Of a stretch of 53,577 nucleotides of DNA, positions 17,593 through 30,669 are shown piece by piece (positions within the stretch are counted from its first letter, which is position 1; the number at the start of each line of letters is the position of its first letter). The DNA comes from Phycisphaerae bacterium (GTDB lineage Bacteria > Planctomycetota > Phycisphaerae > Sedimentisphaerales > Anaerobacaceae). Made by a program: the position numbers and the translations under genes. The notes under the pieces are model-generated. The model did not search any database. It saw nothing but the letters and a program-made list of their open reading frames with translations, and was not told the origin of the DNA. The stretch is taken from positions 1-53,577 of the forward strand of contig JAABXR010000066.1 of assembly GCA_011776225.1 (NCBI GenBank). Reading direction: 5' to 3'.

Positions 17593-17870
17593 TAGTTCAA
17601 ATCCCCTTTATTGCTCAGATTTTATGTTTTTTATACTTGTCGAGACTATTTGTGCGGAAAAAATTATTCGAATCATCTTCGTTGAATAAAATAGGCAGCC
17701 AGCACTATCGAGGGCAATCAGTTTAGGAGTATATTTAACCTCTGTTTATAGTATTTAACATCAATCCCATTATGTAAGGGAGACGCCCGAGTTTTGATCA
17801 AAAGCAGATATAGGATCCTTGAGAGAGTCATTTTGCGTGTTAAAATGGGTAAGAATTTTGCAAAAAATCA

Positions 17871-17885
17871 ATCAAAGGCGCACAT
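17871..17885. repeat. copy 1 of a 15-nt direct repeat ATCAAA(G/A)GCGCACAT upstream of the portal gene
   Basis: atcaaaggcgcacat matches 17984-17998 at 14 of 15 positions. Confidence 0.4.
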
Positions 17886-17983
17886 ACCTAAAGGGAAAAA
17901 CGGGAAAAAATAAAAAAATTTTTACTCCTTATTCCACATAGGTTTAGAAAGAACCGGCTATCAAAAAACACTCCAATTTTCGT

Positions 17984-17998
17984 ATCAAAAGCGCACAT
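17984..17998. repeat. copy 2 of the 15-nt direct repeat, 60 nt upstream of the portal ATG
   Basis: atcaaaagcgcacat. It overlaps a small palindrome GCACATTCGTGC (17992-18003). Confidence 0.4.
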
Positions 17999-18057
17999 TC
18001 GTGCATTTATAGAGAGACGTTGCTTTTTGGCAAGTTGTGAATTGATGGGATTTAGTT

Positions 18058-19608
18058 ATGGGATTTGACCTTAGTATCTTTGAGGATGAACAGTTCGGGG
18101 CCGATTACGTCGAGTGGCTCGTTGATGAACGCTCGATAGATATTCGAACACACTTTTCGAAGCTTTGGGAATATTACGCAAACAACATGCAGGATGTAAT
18201 CAGTGCAGGCGGCCGTAGTGAACCAATGAACGGGCGGTGCTATGCACAGGCGCAGGAGTATGGGCTGCCTCCCAGGATAACCGGATTCGTACAGTCGGCG
18301 AGCACAGGCGTTTTCGGTGGGCGGCGAGTACGCGAAGTACAGCGAAAAGAAGTGGTGATTGAAAATGATATCGCATGGCGAATCAACGCGGCGGTCGATT
18401 TTTTGTTCGGAAAACCAGTTACTTTTGTATCCAAATCGCCGATTAGCCAAAAACGAGCGAAAATAGAGTGCATATTGAAGGCGGTTTTTGAGGCTAACGG
18501 CGCTGTCGGATTTTTTCAGGATATGGCGGTGCTCGGAAGTGTTTATGGTTTCGTCGATTGTCTCGTCAGGCCCAGCGACGAGATCTTAGAAAGCATTTCC
18601 TCCTCCTCCCAACCTCCTTCATTTACAGATGTGCTGCAATTGGCACGGACAATCGACCTGGAACTGATTGAAGCACCGAGAGCACTGCCTGTTCTGGAAG
18701 AGAACGACTATAAAAAAATCAGATATTACGTGCAGCACTTTTACCAGAAGCGAAACGCCCTGAGCAGGAAAAACAACTTTCTCGCGAAACTGCTTTCACC
18801 GAGCAGAAGGGGAAGCGATAGCCGGCAAGTGGTTGCGGTGACGGAGATAACTTCGGCCTTAGCCTGGCAGAGGTATGAGGATAAACAGCTTGTTGCAGAA
18901 AGCAGATTGCCTTGGAGATTTTTGCCGGTAGTGCATATCCAAAATATTGCTCAACCGTACTACTATGAGGGCCTAAGCGATGTCGAGTCACTGATACCAC
19001 TTCAGGATGAGCTTAATACCAGATTGAGTGACAGGGCGAGCAGGATTACGTTCCAGTCGTTTAAGATGTATCTTGGCAAGGGGATAGAGGGCTTTGAGGA
19101 CAGACCGGTGTCGCCGGGCAGGATGTGGTACACCGACAATCCGGAGGCGGCTATTGAAGAATTCGGGGGAGACGCAGCTACGCCGAGCGAGGATTTGCAT
19201 ATTGCCGAGATTAGAGAGGCGATGGATAAGGCGAGTGGGGTCTCGCCGGTGGTGGCCGGTGTTTTGAAGAATAAACTTGGCAATCTTACCAGTGCGGTGG
19301 CCCTAAGACTGACGTTCATGGGGATGCTCTCGAAGAATGAACGAAAGAGATTTACTTATACCGAAGGTCTGAAAAAAATTGCACAGATGATTCTGGCAAT
19401 GCTCGACAGGGCCAACATCTACAAAACCAGCAAGGCGGACAGAGAGATCGATATTATTTTCCCCAGTCCACTACCCGAGAATATGACGGAGAAACTAAAA
19501 GAGGCGCAAATCAAAAAAGAATTAGGCGTTCCCACTGAGCAGGTGCTCAGAGAATTAGGTTACGATACCACGAATGAGAGAGGAAACTCTAATCAGGAGG
19601 TCTTATGA
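18058..19608 (+). CDS. phage portal protein
   Basis: 516 aa and first gene of the block. Portal-like core is WRFLPVVHIQN...YYYEGLSDVESLIPLQDELNTRLSDRASRITFQSF. Its stop overlaps the next start (ATGA at 19605-19608), and scaffold-like and capsid genes follow. Confidence 0.7.
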   Translation: MGFDLSIFEDEQFGADYVEWLVDERSIDIRTHFSKLWEYYANNMQDVISAGGRSEPMNGRCYAQAQEYGLPPRITGFVQSASTGVFGGRRVREVQRKEVVIENDIAWRINAAVDFLFGKPVTFVSKSPISQKRAKIECILKAVFEANGAVGFFQDMAVLGSVYGFVDCLVRPSDEILESISSSSQPPSFTDVLQLARTIDLELIEAPRALPVLEENDYKKIRYYVQHFYQKRNALSRKNNFLAKLLSPSRRGSDSRQVVAVTEITSALAWQRYEDKQLVAESRLPWRFLPVVHIQNIAQPYYYEGLSDVESLIPLQDELNTRLSDRASRITFQSFKMYLGKGIEGFEDRPVSPGRMWYTDNPEAAIEEFGGDAATPSEDLHIAEIREAMDKASGVSPVVAGVLKNKLGNLTSAVALRLTFMGMLSKNERKRFTYTEGLKKIAQMILAMLDRANIYKTSKADREIDIIFPSPLPENMTEKLKEAQIKKELGVPTEQVLRELGYDTTNERGNSNQEVL

Positions 19609-20129
19609 TTTCAAGTGAGGCGCAGGATATTGTGTCAGCAGACACAGCAGGGCACGGAGACGATGACAACTTGAAATTTGTTCCGGTGTCCGAATCCATC
19701 CGTTATCGGAAGAGGGCACAGAGTGCCGAGAAAAAAATCGAATCTCTGGCTGAGCAATTAGCCGAGGCAAAAGCAGAGGTCGAAAAGACGGCTGAACAGC
19801 TAAAAAGCATCCAAGTCGAACAGAAACTTGTGCGTGAATTAGCTGCTGCCGGGGCTGTGGATCTGGAGACAGCTGTGTTGATTGCCAGGGCCAGAGTGGA
19901 AGGAGAAGCCGAAGCGGATATTGATAATGTTATAAGGCAGTTGAAAAAGGAAAAACAATATCTGTTTGCAGGTGTCGGCAGGGCTGTGACGGCGACAAAG
20001 ACTGCGGGGGCTAAGGAGCGAACGGAAGGCAGCCATACAGTTCTTGAGAGAGCTGCAAAGAAGGCGGCAACGACCGGCAGCCGAACAGATTTACAGGAGT
20101 ATCTGAAAATGCGAAGGAATTTTATTTGA
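19605..20129 (+). CDS. phage scaffolding-like protein
   Basis: 174 aa, charged and predicted coiled coil (AQSAEKKIESLAEQLAEAKAEVEKTAEQLKSIQVEQKL). It sits between the portal and capsid genes. Confidence 0.55.
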   Translation: MISSEAQDIVSADTAGHGDDDNLKFVPVSESIRYRKRAQSAEKKIESLAEQLAEAKAEVEKTAEQLKSIQVEQKLVRELAAAGAVDLETAVLIARARVEGEAEADIDNVIRQLKKEKQYLFAGVGRAVTATKTAGAKERTEGSHTVLERAAKKAATTGSRTDLQEYLKMRRNFI

Positions 20130-20187
20130 TTGGATAGAATAAGCAGCTACTAAGCTGGTTGTAAACGAAAGGAAAGGAGAGCATTAA

Positions 20188-21342
20188 ATGGCTTTTACAG
20201 GAAAAGCAACTTATTCAGCAGGTACAACATTGCCGGAGTTGGCCGAAGACGTATCGGATTTGATCGGGATAATCTCGCCATATGAAACACCCTTGCTGGA
20301 TGCCTTGGGGGATCCGATGAGAGAGGCAACGAGCACACACCATGAATGGCTCGAAGATGAACTATTGCCTAACAGGGATGCGGTCAACGACAGCACCTTT
20401 ACTGATCCGGCTGCGGATACGGACTTTGACGTAGACAACGGCAGCAGGTTCCGTGTGGGCGACCAGATTCAGGTAGAAGGATCGGAGGAACTGATGCTTG
20501 TCACCGGTATCAACGGCGATACGCTGACTGTGGTTCGCGGTTATGCGGGTACTACGTCGGAGGATTTGGCCGATAATCAGGTGATTAACATTCTGGGAAA
20601 TGCAGCTCTTGAAGGTGACAACAAGCCCGATGTGAGGTTTACTAATCGTGTCAGATGTGGGAATTACACCCAGATATTTACCGCTGCAGTTGAAGTGAGC
20701 GGAACCGACATTGCTGCGAGCCAATTGGGTCTGGCTGATGAGTTGGATTTTCAGAAGCAGGAACGGTTGCGTGAGTTGATTCGCGATCTGGAAAATACGG
20801 TTATCAACGGTGGACAGCCGACCGGCAATCCTGAAGGCAGCAGCTCGGTAAGGAGGTCGGTGAATGGGATTATTCAGCACATTTCAACGAATGTTTTTCA
20901 TACAGGCGATAGCGGTTTTCCAAGCGGTACCGGCCTTGATGAAGCCAAGGTCAATTACGTGCTCAGGAAGATATGGGAGAATAGCAACGGGAATGTGGAC
21001 TTAATTGTAGTGGGTGGTTTTCAGAAGCGAAAGATAAATGAGTTCTGTGCCGGCAGTCGAACCTATGCGGCGAACGATACGATTTTCACTAATATGGTTA
21101 GTGTTTACGAGAGCGATTTTGGCGTCTGCAGAATTGTTACTTCAAGATGGATACCGCAGGACGGGGTTTTGTTCCTGGATTCATCGAGGCTTAGCGTGTT
21201 GCCTTTGGCGGGACGGAATTTTCATTTCAAACCATTGGCGAGCAGCGGTGACTATGAGTGCGGCGAGTTGATTGGCGAATATACCCTGGAGTTCAAGAAC
21301 GAGATGGCGCACGGACTTATTCGCGATCTAAATGTCAGCTAA
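20188..21342 (+). CDS. major capsid protein (DUF5309 / SU10-type, HK97 fold)
   Basis: 384 aa. The N-terminal LAEDVSDLIGIISPYETPLLDALG...HEWLEDEL matches the DUF5309 capsid signature as I remember it. A strong RBS (AAGGAGAGCATTA) precedes the ATG. Confidence 0.75.
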   Translation: MAFTGKATYSAGTTLPELAEDVSDLIGIISPYETPLLDALGDPMREATSTHHEWLEDELLPNRDAVNDSTFTDPAADTDFDVDNGSRFRVGDQIQVEGSEELMLVTGINGDTLTVVRGYAGTTSEDLADNQVINILGNAALEGDNKPDVRFTNRVRCGNYTQIFTAAVEVSGTDIAASQLGLADELDFQKQERLRELIRDLENTVINGGQPTGNPEGSSSVRRSVNGIIQHISTNVFHTGDSGFPSGTGLDEAKVNYVLRKIWENSNGNVDLIVVGGFQKRKINEFCAGSRTYAANDTIFTNMVSVYESDFGVCRIVTSRWIPQDGVLFLDSSRLSVLPLAGRNFHFKPLASSGDYECGELIGEYTLEFKNEMAHGLIRDLNVS

Positions 21343-21465
21343 ACGGTATGGGTCTACATCGGACGCAATCCTGGCATTTCAGAGCGTCCATTGTGGGTGC
21401 CCGGAGGAGAAACAATTCTTCGGGCACCTAACCGGCCCGGTTACATGAGAAAGGGGCTAAAGAGC

Positions 21466-22122
21466 ATGGTTAGTTTTTCAAGCGATGTGGACATTTTGAA
21501 GTACGAGCCGGTGCTGTTCGGAGAACTACACCTCTCAGGGCAGGTATCGGCGGCAGGGACAGGCGGGACGCTTAGCGGGACGACATTTACCGCAAGTGGG
21601 GCAGATTTTGTAGGTGCGCAGGTCTCAGCTGGCGGAGTTATATATATGCATACTGGAGATGGTACACTGGATGGAGCGTATGAGATTGTGTCTTTGGATT
21701 CGGCGACACAACTTAGCGTTTCGGTGATAAGGTCAGATTCAGCTGATGCTGCAATAGCACCACCGTCTGCTACGGGTATTTCCTACCGCATCAGCACGTT
21801 CTTACCACAGGCCGGAGAAATTGGCTTTCGTTTGACAGAGCACTTTGGTATTAAGCCGGGCAATCCTGCAAGCATCTATGAGGCCGGTGATGTTCTGGAT
21901 ACAGATGTATTGAGAAGGGTATCGGTCTTTGGGGTCATCTCAAATGTATATGCGATGTTAGCCAGTAAGGCCGAAGATGAGAATTTCTGGAAGAAGAGTT
22001 TTCACTATCAGAAACTTTTCGAGAGGGCAAAAGAGAGGTGTCGGCTCAATATTGACGTTGGCTCAGATCAAGTGTCTGATGTCACCAGAGTGGGAGCGTT
22101 TGTAAGGTTGGTCCGGGATTAG
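21466..22122 (+). CDS. hypothetical virion protein (position suggests head completion/adaptor)
   Basis: The track ORF 21391..22122 begins at TTG. I prefer the ATG at 21466 (MVSFSSDVDILKYEP), preceded by a purine-rich stretch. No family was recognised. Confidence 0.55.
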   Translation: MVSFSSDVDILKYEPVLFGELHLSGQVSAAGTGGTLSGTTFTASGADFVGAQVSAGGVIYMHTGDGTLDGAYEIVSLDSATQLSVSVIRSDSADAAIAPPSATGISYRISTFLPQAGEIGFRLTEHFGIKPGNPASIYEAGDVLDTDVLRRVSVFGVISNVYAMLASKAEDENFWKKSFHYQKLFERAKERCRLNIDVGSDQVSDVTRVGAFVRLVRD

Positions 22123-22140
22123 TGATCGAAAGGAAAGCAA

Positions 22141-22518
22141 ATGAGCGTCGCTTTGGACGGGCAGAGTTTGTTTGGCAGTCAGCAGTTGGAGATTGAAATG
22201 GGCAGTATTAGCCGCGATTCGATAGAGAGAGCGATGCCAGGACTGGATGGTATACTCAGTATTGATTTAGGCGGACGTGGCAAGGAGATAAAGCAGAGGG
22301 GTGTGCTACGGGCGAAAAGCCGAGCGCAAATGAACGAGAGGATCAGCGAGATTTCGGCTTTTATAGATGGAAATACACATACGCTAATCACAGACGGAGG
22401 TGAAGAGTTTAACGATTTGCGGATGGACGTTTTCAAGGTGAGCAAAGAGCGAGCGGGCGGCGGTGGTGTAGCGATCGATTATGAGATTGTTTATACGCAG
22501 TTAAAGGTGAGGCAATAA
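22141..22518 (+). CDS. hypothetical virion protein, 125 aa
   Basis: Intact ORF in the operon. Its stop overlaps the next start by 1 nt (TAATG). No family was recognised. Confidence 0.55.
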   Translation: MSVALDGQSLFGSQQLEIEMGSISRDSIERAMPGLDGILSIDLGGRGKEIKQRGVLRAKSRAQMNERISEISAFIDGNTHTLITDGGEEFNDLRMDVFKVSKERAGGGGVAIDYEIVYTQLKVRQ

Positions 22519-23294
22519 TGGCGCTTATCGGTAGCGGAATAGGAAACGTAAGGGCATTCGAGTTGCCCTGTGGCATTTGGGCTGATGGTGAGTCCGTTGG
22601 TAGTCCACGGACAGTTTTGGTAAAGTGGCGGTCGGTCTGGGAAGATAAGTTTTATCAGGTATATGTCAACGGCCAATATGGAGGAGCGACAATTGACAGT
22701 CAGCAAAGGCAAATGATTGTTCAGATGCCCACCTCTTTAGAGTCACCGGTCCGGATTGAGGTTTTTGCCGTCGAGGCCGAGCAGGCAGGGATCGATTTTA
22801 GCAGTGAGATTGGATCGCCAGTGGGACCGAGCGGCCGGGTTAGGATAAGTATGCTGCGTGGTCAGAGATTGCCGGTTGGTGCAATTGCTCAGGTTTATTT
22901 TGATAATGGTACGGGCGAAATTGACTATGACAAGGTGCTCAACGAATCTCCGATAAGAATCTGGCCTGCCCGCCAGGATAAAGCAGGTTTTGGTATGAAC
23001 TGTTTTGCTGTAGGTGATTTTGGTTATGACTCGGCGGCGGCCGTAGGTTTTGGAAGGGGCGTATTTGGCCAAGGCCAGTTTGGTCTTGATGCTGATTCAT
23101 TAGAGTGGACAAGCCCGGTGATTGGTACCGGTGTTTACAGATTTGCCGTCAAGGTCACTGATGGATTGGGCAATGAAAGCGACAGCATCGAGACGGACCA
23201 AGTCATGTTGACATCAGCAGCAAGGCCTGCTGAGAAGATGAACATATTTTCGTTCGATAAACAGACGAATCAATTAGTGTTGGGTGTCTCGTAA
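22518..23294 (+). CDS. hypothetical virion protein with Ig/FN3-like repeat(s)
   Basis: 258 aa. It contains QVYFDNGTGEIDYDKV...GVYRFAVKVTDGLGNES, a module shared with ORF 26381..27067. Confidence 0.55.
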   Translation: MALIGSGIGNVRAFELPCGIWADGESVGSPRTVLVKWRSVWEDKFYQVYVNGQYGGATIDSQQRQMIVQMPTSLESPVRIEVFAVEAEQAGIDFSSEIGSPVGPSGRVRISMLRGQRLPVGAIAQVYFDNGTGEIDYDKVLNESPIRIWPARQDKAGFGMNCFAVGDFGYDSAAAVGFGRGVFGQGQFGLDADSLEWTSPVIGTGVYRFAVKVTDGLGNESDSIETDQVMLTSAARPAEKMNIFSFDKQTNQLVLGVS

Positions 23295-23315
23295 GAGGAT
23301 AGCAAGGAGAGCATT

Positions 23316-24104
23316 ATGAGTGAAGTGTATCCATCTGATAATGAATTATTAAACATACAATCTGACAGTGAGAGCGGTGTTGAATATATTCCTACAGGCA
23401 CATCTCCATATTATCTGCAGTTTAGGAAATTACTGTATAGATTGTTGCTTGCTGTACGACGGGCTAACGATTTACGGGTTTATGATGAGGGCGGACTGGA
23501 TATTGGTGTCAAAGAGGGCAAATTCTGGCTGGGCACAGGGCTGGTAAACTATGATGGCTCATCGGGCAATACACTGGCAGATGATAAAGCAAGTATATAT
23601 GTGCATCTGGATTCGGCGGGTAGTCTTGTCACCAATGAATACAGCAGCTTCCCTGATATGACTACCACGCCTCATATTCGCCTGGCGATAGTAAGCACGT
23701 CGAGTGGAGACATCGGATCGATAACCGATTGTCGTGTGGGTCATAATTTTGTGATGCCGTATGGGGCAGGTGGTGTGAAAAAGACGATTGAGGCACACAC
23801 TGCTGATGATACACTGACAGTGGAGGAATCCGGCAGTGTTCACACGAATCTTGGTGCGACTTCTACGGTTACGCTTACGTTGCCGGCATCAGCTCCAGAG
23901 GGTACGATATTCACCTTCGCAGTCCAAGCGACGCAGGAACTTCGGGTTGACCCTGCCGCTGCGGCCATTAGGGACGACAGTGGTCAGACATCCGGCAAAT
24001 ACAAGGCAGCAGATGCGGTTGGTGAGTGTTTAACACTTGTTGCGGACTCGAACGGCGATTGGACGACTGTTACCAAGAATGGAACCTGGACAGAGGAAGT
24101 ATAA
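23316..24104 (+). CDS. hypothetical virion protein, 262 aa (likely abundant)
   Basis: It has the same 13-nt RBS context as the capsid gene (AAGGAGAGCATTA). No family was recognised. Confidence 0.55.
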   Translation: MSEVYPSDNELLNIQSDSESGVEYIPTGTSPYYLQFRKLLYRLLLAVRRANDLRVYDEGGLDIGVKEGKFWLGTGLVNYDGSSGNTLADDKASIYVHLDSAGSLVTNEYSSFPDMTTTPHIRLAIVSTSSGDIGSITDCRVGHNFVMPYGAGGVKKTIEAHTADDTLTVEESGSVHTNLGATSTVTLTLPASAPEGTIFTFAVQATQELRVDPAAAAIRDDSGQTSGKYKAADAVGECLTLVADSNGDWTTVTKNGTWTEEV

Positions 24105-24114
24105 GAGCAGAGAA

Positions 24115-24432
24115 ATGAAGAATCATCCGCTATACCAAAAGCTAAAGCTAATAGCCCTTGATGAAAACTACACCGTCGAGCAGGTGCAATCACTAAGTTT
24201 TATTGAGGTGACGACTTTGCTTGGCGAAAGACCCGGGAGCACCACTTTTCTTGAGAATATGAAAGAAGGCATCTTTGTGGTGTTACAGAATCGGGATGAT
24301 GAATGTGAACTGCAGGCCCTGCAGGATCAATTCAAGATTTATCTTGATACAAACTTTCCGGGTTGGGTGGCCGAGAGCGACAGAGAAGGAAGCAAACCAT
24401 TTATAAAACTATGGCTGAAAGGTAAACCGTGA
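24115..24432 (+). CDS. hypothetical protein, ~105 aa
   Basis: The track ORF 24037..24432 overlaps the previous gene. The first non-overlapping ATG is 24115 (MKNHPLYQKLK). Confidence 0.45.
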   Translation: MKNHPLYQKLKLIALDENYTVEQVQSLSFIEVTTLLGERPGSTTFLENMKEGIFVVLQNRDDECELQALQDQFKIYLDTNFPGWVAESDREGSKPFIKLWLKGKP

Positions 24433-24433
24433 A

Positions 24434-25924
24434 ATGGGAATGATTTGGTCGACTAATGAATCTGTTATTTTTGTCGGTGGAAGAGGCACAAAGGCCGGTG
24501 ATGCCAATGCCGGCGGCGGGTGTACCAAAGATGTATGGGGTGATTTGAAAGCTCCAAGTTTGTCTCTTTCGGATGTGATGGGGACAAATGGGGAGCCGGT
24601 TTCCGCACCGTCCGCATGGAACGGTTCTGCAACGGCTTGTACTGTTACGCAAAGTTCTGCCGGCAAACTTTTAATTACGAAAACAGGTGCTTTCACCAAC
24701 GTGATCGCAGGACTTATTGCTAATGTAAATTTTTCTGATACTTATTCGGATGGTCGATACAGGGTAAACGCAGCTCAATTGACTGCTAATACCATTGAGA
24801 TTGAATGCCCTTATACTGTGAATGATAGTTGTGATGTGAAAGTCGGAGGAGCTTTCAGCACATTACAGAATTCTTTGGATAATACAGCAGCAGACCAGGG
24901 CTCCTACAAAAGTGTTAATATCCTCACAAACAAGCCTAAGACATTTTCAGGAACAGGAGACCAGATAGATGTTGATGCTGGAGGGGGAAATGGCGATGCG
25001 GGTATATGGAAACGCATAGTAGGCATTGACGGTGATGGTGTAGAGCTTGCCGACGACTCATACATTGCGTTCGATGGGAATGGCCAATCCTGTCACGTGT
25101 TTTATATCAACAATGTAAGTAACATAGAGTTTAGGCACATCTATGCTAAGGATGCCGGTACTAATTATAACGGATTTTCAATTGAGGCTAATGTAGCATC
25201 TAAAGGATTCTCATTTATTTATTGTAAATCATCCGGCTGCAAGCATGGGATATATGCCGGCAATTGGAATGCCTACATGATATATATAAAAGGGGGATGC
25301 TACAGCTCTTCGGAGAGTTGGGCGGTTTATATTTATCAGGCTCGATATGTCACCGCAAAGAAAGTTGAATTTGTCGGCATTACAACGACCCATCTTATAA
25401 ATGCTTATTGTAGTGGTCAGTTTATACTCGACGGTTGTATACTACGTAAAACAGCTGGTTACAGTGCCGGGATCATTGGCAGTTATCCCACAACTCTTAT
25501 TCTTGTTAAAAATAGCACATTTTATAATATCGATCGGTGCGTAGAACTAAACGATGACGGGGCCAAGCTGATTCAATACAACAACATATTCGTTTTGCAT
25601 ACTTCCTCAACAGGCAAGATCATCAAGCGGACAAAAGGTTCTATTATCTACAGCGACTATAGCTGTGCCTGGGCGATTGGTGGAGCACCGGTGGCTTCAG
25701 ACCGTTGGGGTGGTACTGGTTTGCCGGAGCATAGTATTGAACAGAGTCCACAATTCGTAGATGCGGATAATGGTGATTTCAGACCTCGGAATCCAAATGT
25801 ATTGCGGGGAGGTAAACCTGATATAGCTGAAAATGAAACTGAGATGGGAGCTATTTTACAGAAATACCAGTTCCCAAGGCGGTCAAAAGCGACGAATCTT
25901 GGCAGACTGCAAATCATGAAATAG
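24434..25924 (+). CDS. right-handed parallel beta-helix protein (tailspike/depolymerase-like)
   Basis: 496 aa with periodic short beta-rung repeats (NIEFRHIYAKDAG / GFSFIYCKSSGCKHGIYAG / MIYIKGGCYSSS / VTAKKVEFVG / LILDGCILRK / LILVKNSTFYN), as in pectate-lyase-fold tailspikes. The ATG lies 1 nt after the previous stop. Confidence 0.6.
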   Translation: MGMIWSTNESVIFVGGRGTKAGDANAGGGCTKDVWGDLKAPSLSLSDVMGTNGEPVSAPSAWNGSATACTVTQSSAGKLLITKTGAFTNVIAGLIANVNFSDTYSDGRYRVNAAQLTANTIEIECPYTVNDSCDVKVGGAFSTLQNSLDNTAADQGSYKSVNILTNKPKTFSGTGDQIDVDAGGGNGDAGIWKRIVGIDGDGVELADDSYIAFDGNGQSCHVFYINNVSNIEFRHIYAKDAGTNYNGFSIEANVASKGFSFIYCKSSGCKHGIYAGNWNAYMIYIKGGCYSSSESWAVYIYQARYVTAKKVEFVGITTTHLINAYCSGQFILDGCILRKTAGYSAGIIGSYPTTLILVKNSTFYNIDRCVELNDDGAKLIQYNNIFVLHTSSTGKIIKRTKGSIIYSDYSCAWAIGGAPVASDRWGGTGLPEHSIEQSPQFVDADNGDFRPRNPNVLRGGKPDIAENETEMGAILQKYQFPRRSKATNLGRLQIMK

Positions 25925-25934
25925 GAGTTAAACA

Positions 25935-26378
25935 ATGGCAAATACGGCGATCGAAATACCTTTTTATGTTTCCAATGACGGAGAGCCACTGACTGGCTCA
26001 GCGGCCCAAATGGATTTTGAAAGCTTGAAGACATTGTCAGGTACCGACAAGTCCAGTAGTGCTCCGGCAGTGAGCGAGATTGGTGGAGGCTGGTACAAAT
26101 TTAGCGTTGCGTATGGAACGGTACCGTTTGATTCAGGCGACCTTGTTGGGGTTGTAGACGCCGACAAAAATGGAAATAACAACTTGGCTAATGCTGAGCG
26201 ATATATACCTATCGAAGTTCGGCTGGATTTTTATGCTCTGATGCGACTGGTAAATAAAATGAGTCAGAACAAGAACACGGGTGATATGGAAATCAAGGAT
26301 TCTTCCGGCAATACGATTCTGGAGTTGAACATTACCGACAGTGAAAACGCGCTGGACCGTGAACCTGGGATTGCTTGA
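25935..26378 (+). CDS. hypothetical virion protein, 147 aa
   Basis: An AGGAG SD lies 7 nt upstream. No family was recognised. Confidence 0.55.
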   Translation: MANTAIEIPFYVSNDGEPLTGSAAQMDFESLKTLSGTDKSSSAPAVSEIGGGWYKFSVAYGTVPFDSGDLVGVVDADKNGNNNLANAERYIPIEVRLDFYALMRLVNKMSQNKNTGDMEIKDSSGNTILELNITDSENALDREPGIA

Positions 26379-26380
26379 CA

Positions 26381-27067
26381 ATGGATGCTAAGTTTTTTGA
26401 TAGTTTATACGAAGGTGAGTCACAAAATGGTGTCAAGTTTGGGATGAGCTTAACTGGTGGGGATTTTTGGCCTCGTGTTGCGGGTTGTTCTATGCTTTAT
26501 CGTGGTACCAGCATGGACCTGATAGACTTTTTTAATATACTGGCCGTGTCTGAGGCAACGGCATCTGAAATTTCGCCGCCAACCTATGTTTCACACGATA
26601 ATGATTCTATTTATTTTTACGTTGTTCGTCGGGTGAATGAATGCGGTCGTGAAGAGCATACTTTATCTGCCGCGGTCAAAGTTTCAATAGATTCCAATGG
26701 AGAATTGGCGGAGCCGCTGCCCAACAATGTATTCGAGATAAGAGCCGAGCAGGTTGACGGCGATAAAATATTGCTTGTCTGGTATTATTGCCCCATCGAA
26801 CAGCAGTCACCACCTGTGTGTTTTAAGGTTTATTACGATGCTGGTACAGGACAAATAGATTATGAAGATCCGATAGCCACGATTAGCTATTGCGGTCGGA
26901 AATTTTACACTCACCTAAGTGACATGCTTGGCGAAGGCAAATATTTGTTTGCTATAAGAGCGGTAGGTGCCGATGGGACAGAAAACACTTCATTATCCCC
27001 AATGGAGGTCTATCTTGACACCACGAGTCCCGGTGTTATCAACATTCTTAACGCCCGATCGGTTTAA
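26381..27067 (+). CDS. hypothetical virion protein with Ig/FN3-like module
   Basis: The ATG at 26381 lies just after the stop of the previous gene (the track start 26375 is TTG). KVYYDAGTGQIDYEDPIA...GKYLFAIRAVGADGTENTS is paralogous to ORF 22518..23294. Confidence 0.55.
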   Translation: MDAKFFDSLYEGESQNGVKFGMSLTGGDFWPRVAGCSMLYRGTSMDLIDFFNILAVSEATASEISPPTYVSHDNDSIYFYVVRRVNECGREEHTLSAAVKVSIDSNGELAEPLPNNVFEIRAEQVDGDKILLVWYYCPIEQQSPPVCFKVYYDAGTGQIDYEDPIATISYCGRKFYTHLSDMLGEGKYLFAIRAVGADGTENTSLSPMEVYLDTTSPGVINILNARSV

Positions 27068-27155
27068 TGAGAGACATGAATGAAACTATGGTTTTAATTT
27101 GGTGACTTGGATTACTATCGGACAGTTGAAAGTCACAAAAAGCGAGAGATTATGT

Positions 27156-28994
27156 ATGTCTAACAGGATTGACTTTTTCCAATCGGCTCAAATGCAAATG
27201 GTGCTTCCAGCGTCTTCTATGTCGATTTTTGTAGACGGCAAGTTGTGCCCTTTTCTTGAGCCAGTGGAGATTGTGCGTTCCGGTTGGCCGGAATTTGGCT
27301 GGGCCAGGCTGGTTTACAATCCTGCAGCGTATGCTAACGCCGACTTGGTCGCTGTGGAAAATATTGAGGATATACTTGCTACTGGAGGACGAGTTTACAT
27401 TCGGCAAATTTATAATGGTATTCCGCCGGGAGCAGCGGCTTTTGCTCTTCCTCTCTTTGTTGGTGAAATAGAAGGCATCGATACAAAGATAGTTCGCAAC
27501 GGTGAGAGGGCTGAAATTTTAGCTAAGGATTTTAGCGCGAAACTGAAACGCATAACCGTTTACGGCCAGCGGGTGGGTAACTCAGACGGCACGAGTTTAT
27601 TTTTGGCTGGCGTTGAAACCGCATTTAATCCTGATGGCAAGGCCAATGCCGAACCGGAGCCGATACAACTTGACGGCAAGAGTTATACAACCTTTTGTGC
27701 AGAGCCATCGCAAGGCAGGCTTTGGAGCTACGCGGAAGTGATTGATTACCTTCTATGTGAATATTTGCCGGGCGGCCAATTGCAGACGCCAGGTATCGAG
27801 ATACTTAAGGAACTGGCCGAGAACCAAACAGTTCGCGACCTTGATGTGACCGGATTGAATCTGACAGAGGCTTTGCATCGTTGCTGTGGAAGGATTGGCT
27901 TAAGATTTAAATTTGTTCCCGGGCTTGTACCGACCGGCCCCGGACAGGCGATTGTGTTTTATAAGGATAGTGCCGGCAGAGCAGTCGAGTTAAATTGTCA
28001 GCGTACCGGTGAACAGTTTAGTATATCGAAGACAAATATCGTAACTATGAGCAGCAGGAAAAATTTTTGGCCGGTGACACATAAGTATGTAGGCCAAGGT
28101 GATTTTAAAGTTTATGAAGGGACCTTTGAGCTGGTGAATGCCTGGGATACTGCTGATGAGGATACCGACTATGATAAGTTTTCTCCTTCGACGAATTCTG
28201 ATTTTCACCAGGTTAAGGATGTATATCGTAAGTGGTGTCTCAATGAAGCAGGTGATTATAGCGGCGCTCCATACAACCAGGGCAGTGCGTATGACTTTAC
28301 AAAGGTTTTCGGGGGCGGAAATTTTGCATGTCGTCGCAGGCGCTTTTGGCCGGCCCTGGCCACTGACAAGCAGGGCAAGTCACTGGGCTATTATTTGCAG
28401 GTGTCGTTCGATAACGGTCTGCATTGGTGGCAGTACCTTTATGCTTTCAATAACCTGCTCGATGAATGTGGAATTTGGCTTAGCAGCGACCGGCTTGATG
28501 TTAACACCTGGATAGCAGCACTGAAGGGCGTTTTGAAGTTCAGGATAACTGCATCAGTAGTCAGTGATGAGAGATTGAATTGTGTAGTAGCGGATGGCCC
28601 TGTTGGCTCAACATCTCCTGTAGTTGAACATATAATCACACTACCTCGTCAATTCAAATATCGCAAGGTATCAGGCCATAGTATCTTTGCAAATGCCTAC
28701 GATGATACGCTGGGTGTTCCGGATGAAGTGGATGACTCTGCAGCTTTGTATGAATTCGTGCGGAACAGAGCACAGGTTGGCTCTGAGGTCATCGAGATAA
28801 TATCTGTTCAGACACCGCACCTGATCTTTGATTATAGAGTTGGTGACAAGGTGACTTCCAGCCCTGAGAGCAGAGACCTGCTGGCTTGTAAGAGTGATAA
28901 TCGGAGTACAAGCTGGATAGAGCGGGTACAGATGGATTTTGTAAATCAGTGTACAAATTTGAAAATCGTCCGTAAGAGGATACCACAGTTATGA
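27156..28994 (+). CDS. large hypothetical virion protein (tail hub/nozzle-sized), 612 aa
   Basis: The track ORF starts at TTG 27099. I prefer the ATG at 27156 (MSNRIDFFQ). It is the largest ORF of the block. No family was recognised. Confidence 0.55.
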   Translation: MSNRIDFFQSAQMQMVLPASSMSIFVDGKLCPFLEPVEIVRSGWPEFGWARLVYNPAAYANADLVAVENIEDILATGGRVYIRQIYNGIPPGAAAFALPLFVGEIEGIDTKIVRNGERAEILAKDFSAKLKRITVYGQRVGNSDGTSLFLAGVETAFNPDGKANAEPEPIQLDGKSYTTFCAEPSQGRLWSYAEVIDYLLCEYLPGGQLQTPGIEILKELAENQTVRDLDVTGLNLTEALHRCCGRIGLRFKFVPGLVPTGPGQAIVFYKDSAGRAVELNCQRTGEQFSISKTNIVTMSSRKNFWPVTHKYVGQGDFKVYEGTFELVNAWDTADEDTDYDKFSPSTNSDFHQVKDVYRKWCLNEAGDYSGAPYNQGSAYDFTKVFGGGNFACRRRRFWPALATDKQGKSLGYYLQVSFDNGLHWWQYLYAFNNLLDECGIWLSSDRLDVNTWIAALKGVLKFRITASVVSDERLNCVVADGPVGSTSPVVEHIITLPRQFKYRKVSGHSIFANAYDDTLGVPDEVDDSAALYEFVRNRAQVGSEVIEIISVQTPHLIFDYRVGDKVTSSPESRDLLACKSDNRSTSWIERVQMDFVNQCTNLKIVRKRIPQL

Positions 28995-29326
28995 GTAATG
29001 AGCAAGAGAACACAGGCAGCCGAGAGCTATTGGAAAGGTTAGCCAGAGAAGGCACTCAGGCTGAACGGGAATTATCTATTGTTACCTCACCCGGCGCCAG
29101 AGAGTCTGGTTGGGCGATTAAAGTGAAGAGCCAAAGTTCCTACAATGTATATAACGTCATTGCTGTAGAGATAGGTGATGCCGGATCGTTGCCGGTCGAA
29201 ATCGGCCAGCAGATGCAGGCGGTCAATCTTGCTGAGTCCTTTCTTCAGGAAGGATCGCTGCCTGCGGGGAAATATGCGGTAATGCTTAGGGTCGGTGATA
29301 AGAACGTTTTCTATGCAGAGCCGTGA
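28991..29326 (+). CDS. hypothetical protein, 111 aa
   Basis: Its start overlaps the previous stop (ATGA at 28991-28994). Confidence 0.5.
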   Translation: MSNEQENTGSRELLERLAREGTQAERELSIVTSPGARESGWAIKVKSQSSYNVYNVIAVEIGDAGSLPVEIGQQMQAVNLAESFLQEGSLPAGKYAVMLRVGDKNVFYAEP

Positions 29327-29327
29327 A

Positions 29328-29732
29328 ATGGAAGATGGCAGACGGGAGACAAAAGATGAGAAAAGTATTTCTGAACCTGTACCATTAGGACAGATCCTTC
29401 CGGAAGTAATGAGAAATATAGAGGAACGAGTGGAAGCCAATAGAAAGATGAATGATACTAAATTTGAGAAGTCACGAAGCTGGCAGTTTAATCGGCAGAT
29501 AAATGTATCTGTATTGGTTCAGTTGGTTTTTTTAGCGTCTTTGATTTTGGGTAGCTGGGTTAATTTGCAGAGACAGCTTGACCTGTTACAGCACGATGTA
29601 ACATTGTTGCTTCAGTGCCAGAAGAATTTTGATGTAAAACTGGAATCGCTTTCGGCAACGAGCATTTCCTACGAATATCGCCTTCGTGCGCTCGAAAAAG
29701 CTTTAACTAAAGAGCCGTCGACGGATATTTAG
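29328..29732 (+). CDS. membrane-anchored coiled-coil protein (holin/spanin-like by shape only)
   Basis: The ATG at 29328 lies 1 nt after the previous TGA. It has one TM segment (VSVLVQLVFLASLILGSWV) followed by a heptad-like C-terminus. Confidence 0.45.
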   Translation: MEDGRRETKDEKSISEPVPLGQILPEVMRNIEERVEANRKMNDTKFEKSRSWQFNRQINVSVLVQLVFLASLILGSWVNLQRQLDLLQHDVTLLLQCQKNFDVKLESLSATSISYEYRLRALEKALTKEPSTDI

Positions 29733-29733
29733 G

Positions 29734-30669
29734 GTGAAACATTTTGAATGTGGAAAATTAGACAGGATTATAGGCGGGATATTGAAAAATCTTGTATGTA
29801 AAGGATTATGTCCTGATGGTATATGGCAATTGTCTGATGCCGTGAAATCAGTATTAAGTTATCAGATATCAAGATTGCCAAGACGCGATGTTTCGGAAAC
29901 AGATACTCGCTATCCCGTTAATCCGACAAGCATGCGAGCCTTTTTAAGTGTTTTCTTTACCAGGCATTTTTTCCAATCACAGAATAGTTTAATCGAGTAT
30001 ATGACCTCTCAGGATTTTCTCAATATTGTCGATTCAGGAAACTTACGAATTCTTGATGTAGGTTCAGGGCCTGCGGTTGCTTCTTTAGCAGTCACTGATA
30101 TGCTCGCTTGTCTTCTTGAAAATCTTGAGTATGTAGAAGAATGGCCAAAAGGTAAAACAGTGAAAATAACGTATGTACTAAATGACACCTCAAACATTTG
30201 TCTTGGTACAGGTCAAGATATGTTATGCAATTATTTTCGCATGAGAACAGGACATACCAAGAGTATCATGAACAACCACATGATTAGTATTAATCATGCT
30301 TTCCCTGACAATATGAGCCAACTTCAACGTGTAAGGCTTAACTTTGGTACATACGACATAATAATCTTTTCCTATGTTATATTGCCATTAAATGAAGAAA
30401 ACGGATTTAGTGGCCTTGTTGATGGATTGTTGAATATCGAAAGGCTATGTAGTCACAGGGGAAGAGTGCTGGTTCTGCAAGATAAGTTTCAGACAACACT
30501 AGTACTACGAATGAGCAAAGCAATAGGGGTTTCAAGCGAAAAACAGGTACTAACACAGCAGGTGTATCCGAAGAGAAATGATAACGAGGTTTATACTTAT
30601 GTGTATAACCGTTGTTTGTATGCAACAGTCGTGAAAAGAAAGATAGTTAGACAGAGTTCCATTGCGTAA
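29734..30669 (+). CDS. class I SAM-dependent methyltransferase, substrate unknown
   Basis: 311 aa with a GTG start 1 nt after the previous stop. Motif I is LRILDVGSGPAVASL, with an acidic post-beta2 residue (YVLNDTS). The gene is visibly A+T-rich compared with the structural genes. Confidence 0.65.
   Translation: MKHFECGKLDRIIGGILKNLVCKGLCPDGIWQLSDAVKSVLSYQISRLPRRDVSETDTRYPVNPTSMRAFLSVFFTRHFFQSQNSLIEYMTSQDFLNIVDSGNLRILDVGSGPAVASLAVTDMLACLLENLEYVEEWPKGKTVKITYVLNDTSNICLGTGQDMLCNYFRMRTGHTKSIMNNHMISINHAFPDNMSQLQRVRLNFGTYDIIIFSYVILPLNEENGFSGLVDGLLNIERLCSHRGRVLVLQDKFQTTLVLRMSKAIGVSSEKQVLTQQVYPKRNDNEVYTYVYNRCLYATVVKRKIVRQSSIA

What the first reader, a model, noticed from the sequence alone, without database searches (positions are those of the whole stretch)
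17593..30669. Intact phage-type head/tail operon with no terminase, integrase, replication or endolysin gene in reach
Fifteen same-strand ORFs (18058-30669) are packed with minimal gaps and four stop/start overlaps or abutments (19605, 22518, 26376-26383, 28991). The order is portal, coiled-coil scaffold, DUF5309/HK97-type capsid, then about ten unknowns. The unknowns include a 496-aa beta-helix (tailspike-like) protein and a 612-aa protein. This reads as a podovirus-like virion module, with no gene of sheath, tube or tape-measure size. The missing genes are the notable part. A large terminase usually sits directly upstream of the portal, but here there is only a 465-bp A+T-rich ORF-free spacer and a decayed host glycosidase gene. 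At the other end, where T7-like genomes place their terminase, the block runs into lower-GC cargo and then housekeeping genes. Every structural ORF looks intact. This fits either a recently truncated prophage or a retained, host-controlled particle locus (GTA- or tailocin-like domestication). I am not aware of the second option being described for this capsid type or lineage.
Basis: partly seen in the sequence, partly recalled or inferred. Interest (0 to 1): 0.7.

Follow-up and report, generated by a model that had tools for sequence, protein, structure and literature searches.

The report
Domesticated phage particle locus, Sedimentisphaerales
This block is the head-and-tail operon of an old, chromosomally fixed, phage-derived particle system found at the same locus in hundreds of Sedimentisphaerales (Planctomycetota) species; its "missing" terminase is encoded in a separate conserved operon, which makes the system a likely new gene-transfer-agent-like family.

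Summary
Window 18058-30669 carries 15 same-strand ORFs. Portal (PF05133), scaffold and SU10-type capsid (PF17236) are confirmed. The window has no terminase, integrase, replication or lysis gene.

It is not a recently truncated prophage. The same block sits at the same locus, just downstream of a pfkB kinase gene, in all 80 species-representative genomes examined, out of at least 591 with the capsid gene. Its genes are intact (39 of 46 whole loci have all 10 core genes). dN/dS is 0.05-0.3. The block co-diverges with the neighbouring host gene (Mantel p=0.001). There are no att repeats.

The lineage does have a terminase. A conserved operon (HTH regulator, ABC-type ATPase, ParB-like protein, TerS, TerL) lies divergently upstream in 20 of 45 related loci and elsewhere in the rest, including the window's clade. 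Its TerL has dN/dS 0.11 and an intact Walker A motif.

Other features:
- a hypervariable cassette of probable receptor-binding genes (52 ORF families)
- a hub-like 612-aa tail protein
- a conserved pair of 15-nt operator-like repeats upstream of the portal gene

Best reading: a GTA-like domesticated particle system, apparently undescribed for Planctomycetota. Particle production and DNA transfer are untested.

The parts
17593..18057 (+). A+T-rich (34.8% GC) regulatory spacer upstream of the portal gene. It holds direct copies of a conserved 15-nt motif (consensus ATCAAAAGCGCAGGT) at 17871-17885 and 17984-17998, 113 bp apart, plus a degenerate third copy at 17797-17811. A conserved TTATAGAGAGAC box follows the last copy.
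   Evidence: Alignment of the spacer from 8 loci. A PWM scan of 2.26 Mb of related loci on both strands gave 150 hits; 101 are on the + strand within 500 bp upstream of a portal gene, and 8 more are at the same place in L094, L095, L097 and the window. GC.
18058..19608 (+). Portal protein (516 aa)
   Evidence: PF05133 56.5 bits and phrog_64 4e-25. 64-92% identical in 75 related loci. dN/dS 0.10-0.12.
19605..20129 (+). Scaffolding protein (174 aa, coiled coil)
   Evidence: Weak PF06810 and phrog_194 hits, plus its position between portal and capsid genes. Conserved in 85 loci. dN/dS 0.13-0.22.
20188..21342 (+). Major capsid protein, SU10/DUF5309 type (384 aa)
   Evidence: PF17236 at 1e-84 and phrog_1328 at 2e-76. 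Exactly 384 aa with no internal stop in 88 loci. 80-95% identical. dN/dS about 0.05.
21466..22122 (+). g4, conserved 218-aa protein. Its position and helical C-terminus suggest a head-tail adaptor or connector (inference).
   Evidence: No family hit. 218 aa in 84 loci at 56-89% identity. dN/dS 0.11-0.16.
22141..22518 (+). g5, conserved 125-aa protein, function unknown
   Evidence: Present in 80 loci. dN/dS 0.10-0.22.
22518..23294 (+). g6, conserved 258-aa protein with an FN3/Ig-like C-terminal segment (my reading of the sequence)
   Evidence: Present in 77 loci. dN/dS 0.15-0.25.
23316..24104 (+). g7, 262-aa protein and the second most conserved in the block (71-91% identity). Probably the fibre or fibre-anchor protein that precedes the variable cassette (inference).
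   Evidence: Alignment A3 has mean column identity 86%. dN/dS about 0.09. Residues 167-261 are 37% identical to the C-terminus of a 480-aa structural-module protein of phage contig L179. In some loci only the first ~60% of g7 aligns. The single-sequence AF2 model failed.
24115..26378 (+). Hypervariable cassette. In this window it holds g8 (105 aa, 24115-24432), g9 (496-aa beta-helix, tailspike-like, 24434-25924) and g10 (147 aa, 25935-26378). The g10 family is present in nearly all loci.
   Evidence: The region between g7 and g11 is 1.1-3.9 kb long and holds 52 ORF families across about 65 loci. Family F0 (= g10) has 60 members across those loci. g9 has weak DUF5123 and Beta_helix hits. g8 and g9 dN is 0.2-0.65 against close relatives, compared with 0.03-0.1 for core genes.
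26375..27067 (+). g11, conserved 230-aa protein with an FN3/Ig-like C-terminus
   Evidence: Present in 65 loci at 36-79% identity. dN/dS 0.15-0.32.
27156..28994 (+). g12, 612-aa protein, probably a tail/baseplate hub (gp27, gpD, Mu gp44, VgrG-like N-terminal region)
   Evidence: 1084 homologs, none with a Pfam domain. 889 clusters at 50% identity. The AF2 model is poor (pLDDT 46), but Foldseek hits are consistently hub or spike proteins in PDB (PhiTE, Bas63 and Mu baseplates, Pvc8, Afp8, CIS spikes) and in BFVD (gpP, gpD, tail lysin, T6SS component). The best PDB sequence-profile hits are Pvc8 (E=0.13) and Afp8 (E=0.53), neither significant. dN/dS 0.11-0.17.
28991..29326 (+). g13, conserved 111-aa protein, function unknown
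   Evidence: Present in 54 loci. dN/dS 0.05-0.15.
29295..29732 (+). g14, small single-pass membrane protein with a C-terminal coiled coil. The conserved core is the last ~95 aa. Holin- or spanin-like topology (inference only).
   Evidence: The C-terminal 55-60% is conserved in 53 loci and the N-terminus varies. Called as 91-139 aa in relatives. The transmembrane segment is read from the sequence.
29734..30669 (+). g15, optional 311-aa low-GC (37.5%) ORF with a SAM-methyltransferase-like motif (VLDVGSGPA). Accessory gene, not core.
   Evidence: Absent in L001 and L002, present in L003 and L007; tblastn found it in only 14 loci. No family hit. GC.

Best explanation
The block is the structural (head plus tail) operon of an anciently domesticated, vertically inherited, phage-derived particle system of Sedimentisphaerales (class Phycisphaerae, Planctomycetota). 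It most likely works like a gene transfer agent. The operon is transcribed from a regulated promoter in the A+T-rich spacer, which carries two conserved 15-nt operator-like repeats. It makes procapsids (portal, scaffold, SU10-type capsid protein), connector proteins, a short tail with a hub-like 612-aa protein, and fibres or spikes whose specificity comes from a rapidly swapping cassette (g8-g10 here). DNA would be packaged by TerS/TerL from a second conserved operon: HTH regulator, ABC-type ATPase, a phrog_886-like protein, a ParB-like protein, TerS, TerL. That operon lies divergently upstream of pfkB in many relatives and has been moved elsewhere in the window's clade. Shown here: gene identities for portal, capsid and TerL; fixed locus; intactness; purifying selection; co-divergence with the host; the separate terminase operon; the variable cassette; the cis motif. 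Inferred: particle assembly, packaging of host DNA, release and transfer, the tail type, and that the window's own genome still carries the terminase operon.
For: Gene identity: portal and capsid pass Pfam cutoffs.

Fixed locus: pfkB-(GH5 cellulase)-portal...g14-(SPL or a 194-aa protein) recurs in every long contig looked up and in the 80 best of at least 591 GTDB species-representative genomes, including four complete MAG chromosomes.

Intactness: the capsid protein is 384 aa with no stop in 88 of 88 loci, and 39 of 46 whole-block loci have all 10 core genes. The neighbouring GH5 gene in this same window has decayed.

Selection: dN/dS is 0.05-0.3 for every block gene. The capsid gene is at 0.05, like host pfkB at 0.05-0.09.

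Vertical descent: pairwise distances of portal, capsid, g4, g6, g7 and g12 correlate with those of pfkB (r 0.70-0.88, Mantel p=0.001). Block GC is 47.2%, flanks 45.8-47.0%. There are no att repeats, tRNA or integrase (precomputed Pfam).

Terminase: a TerL family (PF17289; phrog_2 at 3e-16; PDB TerL 5oe8 at E=1e-3; Walker A in 72 of 72; dN/dS 0.11) has 1997 database homologs at E<=1e-10, the best 120 at 72-100% identity. It sits on the same contigs as the block in L017, L043, L051, L094, L095 and L097. It is preceded by TerS (phrog_24579 at 5e-6), a ParB-like protein, an ATPase and an HTH gene. That operon is directly upstream in 20 of 45 block loci.

Host genes are interspersed between the modules: pfkB, cellulase, a pseudouridine synthase, an FAD oxidoreductase and a sulfatase.

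Target recognition: a hypervariable cassette of 52 ORF families and hub-like g12.

Dedicated control: the 15-nt motif is almost exclusive to the portal upstream region.
Against: There is no evidence of expression, particles or packaged DNA. No TerL is on the window's contig, and I could not search the rest of that genome, so the window's clade could have lost it. No endolysin or holin was identified; g14 is only topologically suggestive. The TerS candidate keeps an N-terminal HTH-like region, whereas the TerS of known GTAs are reported to lack a DNA-binding domain (PMC11841831). Nine of the core structural proteins have no recognisable family, and both AF2 models were poor. In one complete MAG chromosome (L038, CP070830) the 5' half of the portal gene is missing, so loss does occur. 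Synonymous divergence of block genes (dS 0.4-0.5 to the closest relatives) is lower than that of pfkB (0.8-1.2). This could reflect recombination between lineages or codon constraint rather than strict vertical descent. All relatives are MAGs or metagenome contigs. Only the best 80 of at least 591 genome matches were inspected.
Confidence: 0.68

Rival explanations
1. Recently truncated or defective prophage: a temperate phage integrated here and lost its terminase, integrase, replication and lysis genes by deletion. The structural genes look intact only because too little time has passed for decay.
For: The window alone fits this: an isolated structural module next to a decayed gene and lower-GC cargo. 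IMG/VR classifies one such contig (L090) as viral.
Against: The same truncated form is at the same locus in all 80 species-level genomes examined, with capsid identity 80-95% and host pfkB identity 66-89%. dN/dS is 0.05-0.3. The block co-diverges with pfkB. Its GC matches the host and there are no att repeats. An adjacent host gene decayed while all 15 ORFs stayed open.
Confidence: 0.03
2. A domesticated particle with a function other than gene transfer. Examples: a bacteriocin-like killing particle, a delivery device for a specific DNA or protein cargo, or lateral-transduction-like packaging from a fixed pac site recognised by the HTH-bearing TerS.
For: The hypervariable receptor-binding cassette resembles the specificity swapping seen in tailocins and phages. 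The TerS candidate keeps an HTH, unlike known GTA TerS. A ParB-like protein and an ATPase accompany the terminase. The terminase operon is unlinked or unconfirmed in the window's clade.
Against: Conserved portal, scaffold, capsid and an intact TerL ATPase/nuclease point to DNA-filled heads. Tailocins lack capsid genes. No toxin or effector gene is recognisable in the block.
Confidence: 0.22
3. An active temperate phage or phage satellite (for example a capsid-forming PICI-like element) with a strongly preferred integration site next to pfkB, acquired horizontally many times.
For: Block genes have lower dS than pfkB between close relatives, which could indicate exchange. One real phage (L089/L179) carries a 63%-identical copy of the capsid gene.
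Against: No integrase, repressor, replication gene or att repeat was found in the window or within 10 kb in the annotated relatives. Host genes lie between and within the modules. Distance matrices agree with the host gene. Capsid identity to any isolated phage is at most 30%, and g12 has no match in 50,697 phage records. IMG/VR yielded one contig carrying the block (L090) and one phage with a lone capsid-gene copy.
Confidence: 0.05

Closest known systems
RcGTA-type gene transfer agents of Alphaproteobacteria (Rhodobacter capsulatus, Caulobacter crescentus)
   Same: A phage-derived head-tail cluster fixed in the chromosome. It is inherited vertically across a large clade, is under purifying selection, lacks integration and replication genes, has components spread over more than one locus, and appears to have dedicated transcriptional control.
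   Different: No detectable sequence relationship. The capsid is PF17236 (SU10 type) and the portal PF05133; by my recollection RcGTA uses HK97-type PF05065 and PF04860. In RcGTA TerS/TerL head the structural cluster; here they sit in a separate, divergent or unlinked operon with ParB-like and ABC-ATPase genes. There is no tape-measure gene, and RcGTA is siphovirus-like. The TerS candidate keeps an HTH. A hypervariable receptor-binding cassette is present. Function is untested.
Other experimentally known GTAs: BaGTA (Bartonella), VSH-1 (Brachyspira), Dd1 (Desulfovibrio), VTA (Methanococcus voltae), as listed in PMC11841831
   Same: Independent domestications of tailed phages into host-encoded particles. 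The present locus would be one more independent case.
   Different: Different phylum (Planctomycetota, PVC group) and no shared gene families were detected. Those GTAs were found by transfer activity, whereas this one is inferred from comparative genomics only.
Phage SU10 / Kuravirus-type capsid family (PF17236) and SPP1-type portals
   Same: The capsid and portal proteins belong to these families at the profile level.
   Different: At most 30% capsid identity to any isolated phage. The tail genes are unrelated to anything in PHROGs or in the phage collection. The element is chromosomal and non-mobile.
Tailocins (R- and F-type pyocins) and extracellular contractile injection systems (PVC, Afp)
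   Same: Domesticated phage-tail machinery with swappable specificity modules. g12 resembles their hub or spike proteins (Pvc8, Afp8) at low confidence.
   Different: Those systems have no capsid, portal or terminase. This locus has all three in its lineage, and it has no sheath, tube or tape-measure gene that could be recognised.

Membership tests
Gene transfer agent (functional class) | Phage-derived structural gene cluster encoded in the host chromosome with no integration, replication or lysogeny genes | tested here: met
   Pfam and PHROG scans of the window, precomputed Pfam for six distinct related loci, and no att repeats or tRNA.
Gene transfer agent (functional class) | Vertical inheritance across a host clade, with conserved position and purifying selection | tested here: met
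   Same locus in 80 of 80 inspected species genomes. dN/dS 0.05-0.3. Mantel r 0.70-0.88, p=0.001 against pfkB.
Gene transfer agent (functional class) | A terminase (TerL, TerS) available to fill the heads | tested here: inconclusive
   Absent from the window. Present as a conserved operon in the lineage, on the same contig as the block in L017, L043, L051, L094, L095 and L097. The rest of the window's genome could not be searched.
Gene transfer agent (functional class) | TerS without a sequence-specific DNA-binding domain (reported for known GTAs, PMC11841831) | tested here: inconclusive
   The TerS candidate (L017 2911-3387) matches TerS PHROGs over residues 1-77 and weakly matches an HTH Pfam family. 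An N-terminal HTH therefore seems retained, but the hits are weak.
Gene transfer agent (functional class) | Particles package essentially random host DNA in pieces too small to carry the whole system, and transfer it to recipients | not testable with these tools
   Needs particle purification, sequencing of DNase-protected DNA and transfer assays.
RcGTA-like family (homology-defined) | Homology to the RcGTA head-tail genes (HK97-type capsid PF05065, portal PF04860, TerL at the head of the cluster) | tested here: not met
   The capsid protein matches only PF17236 and the portal only PF05133. TerL is not in the cluster. The RcGTA family assignments are from my own knowledge, not from a tool.
SU10-type major capsid protein (PF17236) | Score above the Pfam gathering threshold over the full domain | tested here: met
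   284.6 bits against a cutoff of 24.1, covering profile positions 11-291 of 292.
Intact temperate prophage | Integrase and att sites, repressor/replication module, terminase next to the portal gene, lysis cassette | tested here: not met
   None found in the window or within 10 kb in relatives.
Tailocin / contractile injection system | Tail-only particle (sheath and/or tube, baseplate) with no capsid, portal or terminase | tested here: not met
   Capsid, portal and scaffold genes are conserved and intact. No sheath or tube family was detected.
Phage satellite (PICI / cf-PICI) | Mobile island with integrase, att sites and helper-dependent induction, patchily distributed | tested here: not met
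   No integrase or att sites. Fixed position and co-divergence with the host.

The most novel reading that the evidence does not exclude
Sedimentisphaerales, an abundant order of anaerobic sediment Planctomycetota, universally maintain a functional, host-controlled virus-derived particle system that arose independently of all known GTAs. It would be the first in the PVC superphylum. It would be built from a split genome (structural operon plus an unlinked TerS/TerL-ParB-ATPase operon), carry lineage-specific targeting through a hypervariable receptor-binding cassette, and possibly package from defined sites via an HTH-bearing TerS. It could be a major route of DNA exchange in anoxic sediments.
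Probability: 0.45. Interest if true: 0.85.

Novelty: new member of a known kind. Interest (0 to 1): 0.74.

Why it matters
Only a handful of GTA families are known, all found by chance in cultured organisms. A recent review of the field asks how prevalent GTAs really are and whether distant ones are outliers or clade-wide (PMC11841831).

This locus gives a concrete, order-wide candidate in a phylum with no described GTA. The capsid gene is in at least 591 species-level genomes. The candidate comes with defined components: structural operon, terminase operon, candidate regulator and operator motif, and variable targeting cassette.

It makes several things directly testable: particle production in Sedimentisphaerales cultures or enrichments, the origin of host DNA in sediment viromes, and how a domesticated virus is broken up and controlled by its host.

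It also matters in practice. Virus-detection pipelines label these contigs as proviruses (one is in IMG/VR), and annotation pipelines call the TerL and most structural genes 'hypothetical'.

Tried and rejected
- **Family searches on the unknown ORFs.** Pfam, PHROGs and NCBIfam found nothing for the 12 unknown block ORFs.
- **Profile searches of PDB sequences.** Profiles for g12, g7 and g4 gave nothing significant.
- **Structure prediction.** AF2 of g12 with a 43-sequence alignment gave pLDDT 46. I used it only for the consistency of hub-type hits. AF2 of g7 from a single sequence failed (pLDDT 36).
- **RNA and tRNA scans of the window.** Rfam and tRNA scans were empty.
- **Promoter and terminator scans.** Sigma-70 promoter and intrinsic terminator scans did not exceed the shuffled-sequence expectation.
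- **First terminase search.** TerL from distantly related phages (L089, L092) found nothing in the window and gave one marginal hit, in L043. Following up that marginal hit led to the lineage's TerL family.
- **Linking TerL to the window's clade.** I compared contig lengths between the capsid and TerL hit lists. No contig appeared in both top-120 lists, so this stays open.
- **The motif at the packaging operon.** The 15-nt motif was not found upstream of that operon, apart from one site in L016.
- **Rejected readings.** Truncated prophage, active phage or satellite, and tailocin. Reasons are given under the rival explanations and membership tests.
- **Literature.** Searches for any description of a Planctomycetota, Phycisphaerae or DUF5309-type GTA or domesticated capsid found nothing.

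Full report
**1. What is in the window.**
ORF listing shows 15 tightly packed + strand ORFs from 18058 to 30669. Four pairs have stop/start overlaps.
- portal, PF05133, 56.5 bits against a cutoff of 25.5, and phrog_64 at 4e-25
- a coiled-coil scaffold, with weak PF06810 and phrog_194 hits
- an SU10/DUF5309-type major capsid protein, PF17236, 1e-84

The other twelve ORFs match nothing in Pfam, PHROGs or NCBIfam. The one exception is a weak beta-helix hit for the 496-aa ORF.

The flanks are ordinary cellular genes: purE, purM, two purF-like genes, pfkB, Hsp20, SurA, a BcrAD/BadFG-type activase, glycosidases and an SPL-like radical-SAM enzyme. The ORFs I could not scan read as ASCH, GNAT, homocysteine methyltransferase, HAD, sulfatase and RmuC. 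That is my reading of the sequences.

The 53.6-kb window has no terminase, integrase, replication or clear lysis gene. It has no tRNA, no Rfam match and no att-like repeat. The 465-bp spacer is 34.8% GC. The gene upstream is a GH5 cellulase pseudogene with a deletion, a frameshift and a stop.

**2. The block is a fixed chromosomal locus across a large clade.**
The capsid protein has thousands of database homologs. The best 120 are all about 384 aa, 84-100% identical, and come from Phycisphaerae, Sedimentisphaerales or Planctomycetota MAGs.

Context look-ups for five of them gave the same arrangement every time, on contigs up to 512 kb: pfkB, usually a GH5 cellulase on the opposite strand, then portal-scaffold-capsid-218-125-258-262-[variable]-~230-~612-111-~95 aa, then an SPL-like gene or a 194-aa protein.

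The best 80 carry capsid proteins 80-95% identical and include four complete MAG chromosomes. tblastn of the window's proteins against these loci shows the same gene order throughout.

The capsid protein is exactly 384 aa with no stop in 88 of 88 loci. Of 46 loci that span the whole block, 39 have all ten core genes. Most exceptions are divergent small genes. One complete chromosome (L038, CP070830) has lost the 5' half of the portal gene.

**3. Selection and descent.**
Against seven close relatives, dN/dS is 0.05-0.3 for every block gene. The capsid gene is at about 0.05, the same as host pfkB.

Pairwise distances of portal, capsid, g4, g6, g7 and g12 track those of pfkB across 23 genomes (Pearson r 0.70-0.88, Mantel p=0.001).

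GC content of the block (47.2%) equals that of the flanks.

A recent truncation cannot explain an identical truncated form that has co-diverged with its host over divergences of 11-34% in a housekeeping protein.

One oddity remains. Block genes have lower dS than pfkB between the closest genomes (0.4-0.5 against 0.8-1.2). I cannot decide between codon constraint and recombination among lineages.

**4. The terminase exists, in a second operon.**
TerL from distant phages found nothing except one marginal hit at the edge of locus L043. That protein turned out to belong to a large, conserved family.
- A metagenome scan found 357 relatives, the best 80 at 76-100% identity.
- The protein database holds 1997 homologs at E<=1e-10. 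The best 120 are about 500 aa, 72-100% identical, and wherever a source names them they are called 'hypothetical protein', from Planctomycetes or Sedimentisphaerales MAGs.

It is a TerL by several tests:
- PF17289 above its cutoff
- phrog_2 at 3e-16, plus six other TerL PHROGs
- a PDB TerL (5oe8) at E=1e-3
- a Walker A motif in 72 of 72 full-length copies
- dN/dS of 0.11

It lies on the same contig as the block in L017, L043, L051, L094, L095 and L097.

In L017 the gene order on the strand opposite to pfkB and portal is:
- an HTH protein with weak Q-antiterminator or late-activator similarity
- an ABC-type ATPase (phrog_293, 1e-29)
- a phrog_886-like protein
- a ParB-like protein (PF02195; phrog_723, 4e-17)
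- TerS (phrog_24579, 5e-6)
- a host pseudouridine synthase gene on the other strand
- TerL

At least the first genes of this operon lie directly upstream of pfkB in 20 of the 45 block loci that have 6 kb or more of upstream sequence.

Elsewhere TerL sits among host genes: aspartyl-tRNA synthetase, a PALP enzyme and an FAD oxidoreductase. A sulfatase and the oxidoreductase are sometimes inserted between TerS and TerL.

In the window's clade (L001, L002, L003, L009, L012) a BcrAD-type gene lies upstream of pfkB, and the packaging operon is not within reach. Whether the window's genome carries it elsewhere could not be tested.

**5. Tail and targeting genes.**
There is no tape-measure, sheath or recognisable tube gene. 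The 612-aa protein has 1084 close homologs and 889 clusters at 50% identity, none with a Pfam domain.

Its AF2 model is poor (pLDDT 46). Even so, Foldseek returns almost only tail or baseplate hub and spike proteins:
- PDB: PhiTE, Bas63 and Mu baseplates, Mu gp44, gpD-like tail proteins, Pvc8, Afp8 and CIS spikes
- BFVD: Mu gpP, protein D, tail lysins and a T6SS component

The best hits of a broad sequence profile are Pvc8 and Afp8, neither significant. I therefore call it hub-like, with low confidence. The 'podovirus-like' label stays open.

Between g7 and g11 lies a 1.1-3.9 kb region holding 52 ORF families across about 65 loci. Only the g10 family is near-universal. In the window this region encodes a small protein, the 496-aa beta-helix protein and g10. 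The first two are by far the most divergent genes in the block. This is the pattern expected of receptor-binding modules.

**6. Regulation.**
The spacer upstream of the portal gene contains direct copies of a 15-nt motif, consensus ATCAAAAGCGCAGGT. In the window they are at 17871 and 17984, with a weaker copy at 17797. The spacing of 112-113 bp recurs in L094, L095 and L097.

Across 2.26 Mb of related loci, scanned on both strands, 109 of 150 PWM hits lie just upstream of a portal gene. This indicates a dedicated regulator. Candidates are the HTH protein that heads the packaging operon and the XRE-M78 (ImmA/IrrE-type) protein that follows TerL in 25 of 80 loci. Both candidates are inference.

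**7. Interpretation.**
The comparative evidence fits an ancient domestication of a tailed phage into a host-encoded, host-regulated particle system. Its genome has been split and interleaved with host genes. The closest functional analogy is a gene transfer agent.

It is not a member of the RcGTA family: the capsid and portal families differ and TerL is not in the cluster. It differs from known GTAs in four ways:
- a separate packaging operon with ParB-like and ATPase genes
- a TerS candidate that appears to keep an HTH
- no tape-measure gene
- a hypervariable targeting cassette

Rivals are rated in the Rival explanations section. A truncated prophage and an active phage or satellite are essentially excluded. 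A domesticated particle with a function other than generalised gene transfer remains possible.

**8. Novelty and caveats.**
The literature library holds no description of a GTA or domesticated capsid in Planctomycetota, Phycisphaerae or for DUF5309-type capsids. A 2024 review lists only alphaproteobacterial GTAs, BaGTA, VSH-1, Dd1 and VTA.

Isolated phages share at most 30% capsid identity, and none has a g12 homolog.

Caveats:
- Everything rests on MAGs and metagenome contigs. Some bins carry doubtful names ('Pirellulales', 'Aegiribacteria').
- Only the best 80 genome matches were inspected.
- Function is untested.
- The terminase was not shown for the window's own genome.

Noticed in passing
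L089 7023-8183 and L179 (IMGVR_UViG_3300033145_000895): A genuine phage contig (RecT, PD-(D/E)XK nuclease, two DNA methylases, TerL, then a 601-aa and a 373-aa structural-module ORF) carries an extra copy of the Sedimentisphaerales-type capsid gene. The copy is 63% identical and 386 aa, and it sits among the phage's early genes. A 480-aa protein in its structural module shares a C-terminal domain with g7 (37% identity). This may be capture of a host particle gene by a phage, for example as an interfering or decoy subunit.
   Followed up: partly
L094 9010-10600; 25 of 80 TerL loci (families 3 and 4): An XRE-HTH/M78 (ImmA/IrrE-type) fusion protein and a 180-aa protein that I read as PIN-like (no family hit) lie immediately downstream of TerL in many genomes. 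They could be a stress-responsive switch for the system, or an unrelated toxin-antitoxin-like pair.
   Followed up: no
window 16645-17592 (- strand): The GH5 cellulase gene is intact in relatives (395-457 aa). Here it is a pseudogene, with residues ~123-237 deleted, one frameshift and one in-frame stop. It lies right next to the fully intact block.
   Followed up: yes
L038 8650-9393 (CP070830.1, complete MAG chromosome): Only the C-terminal ~200 residues of the portal protein align. A sulfatase-like gene on the opposite strand abuts the remnant, while all downstream structural genes look intact. This is either a lineage in which the system is being lost or an assembly problem.
   Followed up: partly
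window 18058-29732 compared with 15644-16603: Synonymous divergence to the closest relatives is about half as large for the block genes (dS 0.35-0.65) as for the adjacent pfkB gene (0.8-1.2). Possible causes are codon-usage constraint, as reported for GTA genes, or recombination of the block between lineages.
   Followed up: no
window 29734-30669 and 30673-31767: An optional low-GC (37.5%) ORF with a SAM-methyltransferase-like motif and a convergent spore-photoproduct-lyase-like radical-SAM gene (PF20903, 2e-32) form a variable junction at the 3' end of the block. In some genomes a conserved 194-aa protein follows the block directly.
   Followed up: partly
window 47164-47715: A 183-aa protein with an N-terminal transmembrane segment and a sub-threshold Amidase_2 (N-acetylmuramoyl-L-alanine amidase) hit lies 16.5 kb downstream of the block. 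It is the only lysis-like candidate in the window. No link to the block was shown.
   Followed up: no
L029 (JAIVYN010000011.1) and many 'uncultured Pirellulales' records: Contigs carrying this Sedimentisphaerales-type locus are filed under 'Candidatus Aegiribacteria' and 'Pirellulales'. This is probably bin contamination or automatic mislabelling.
   Followed up: no
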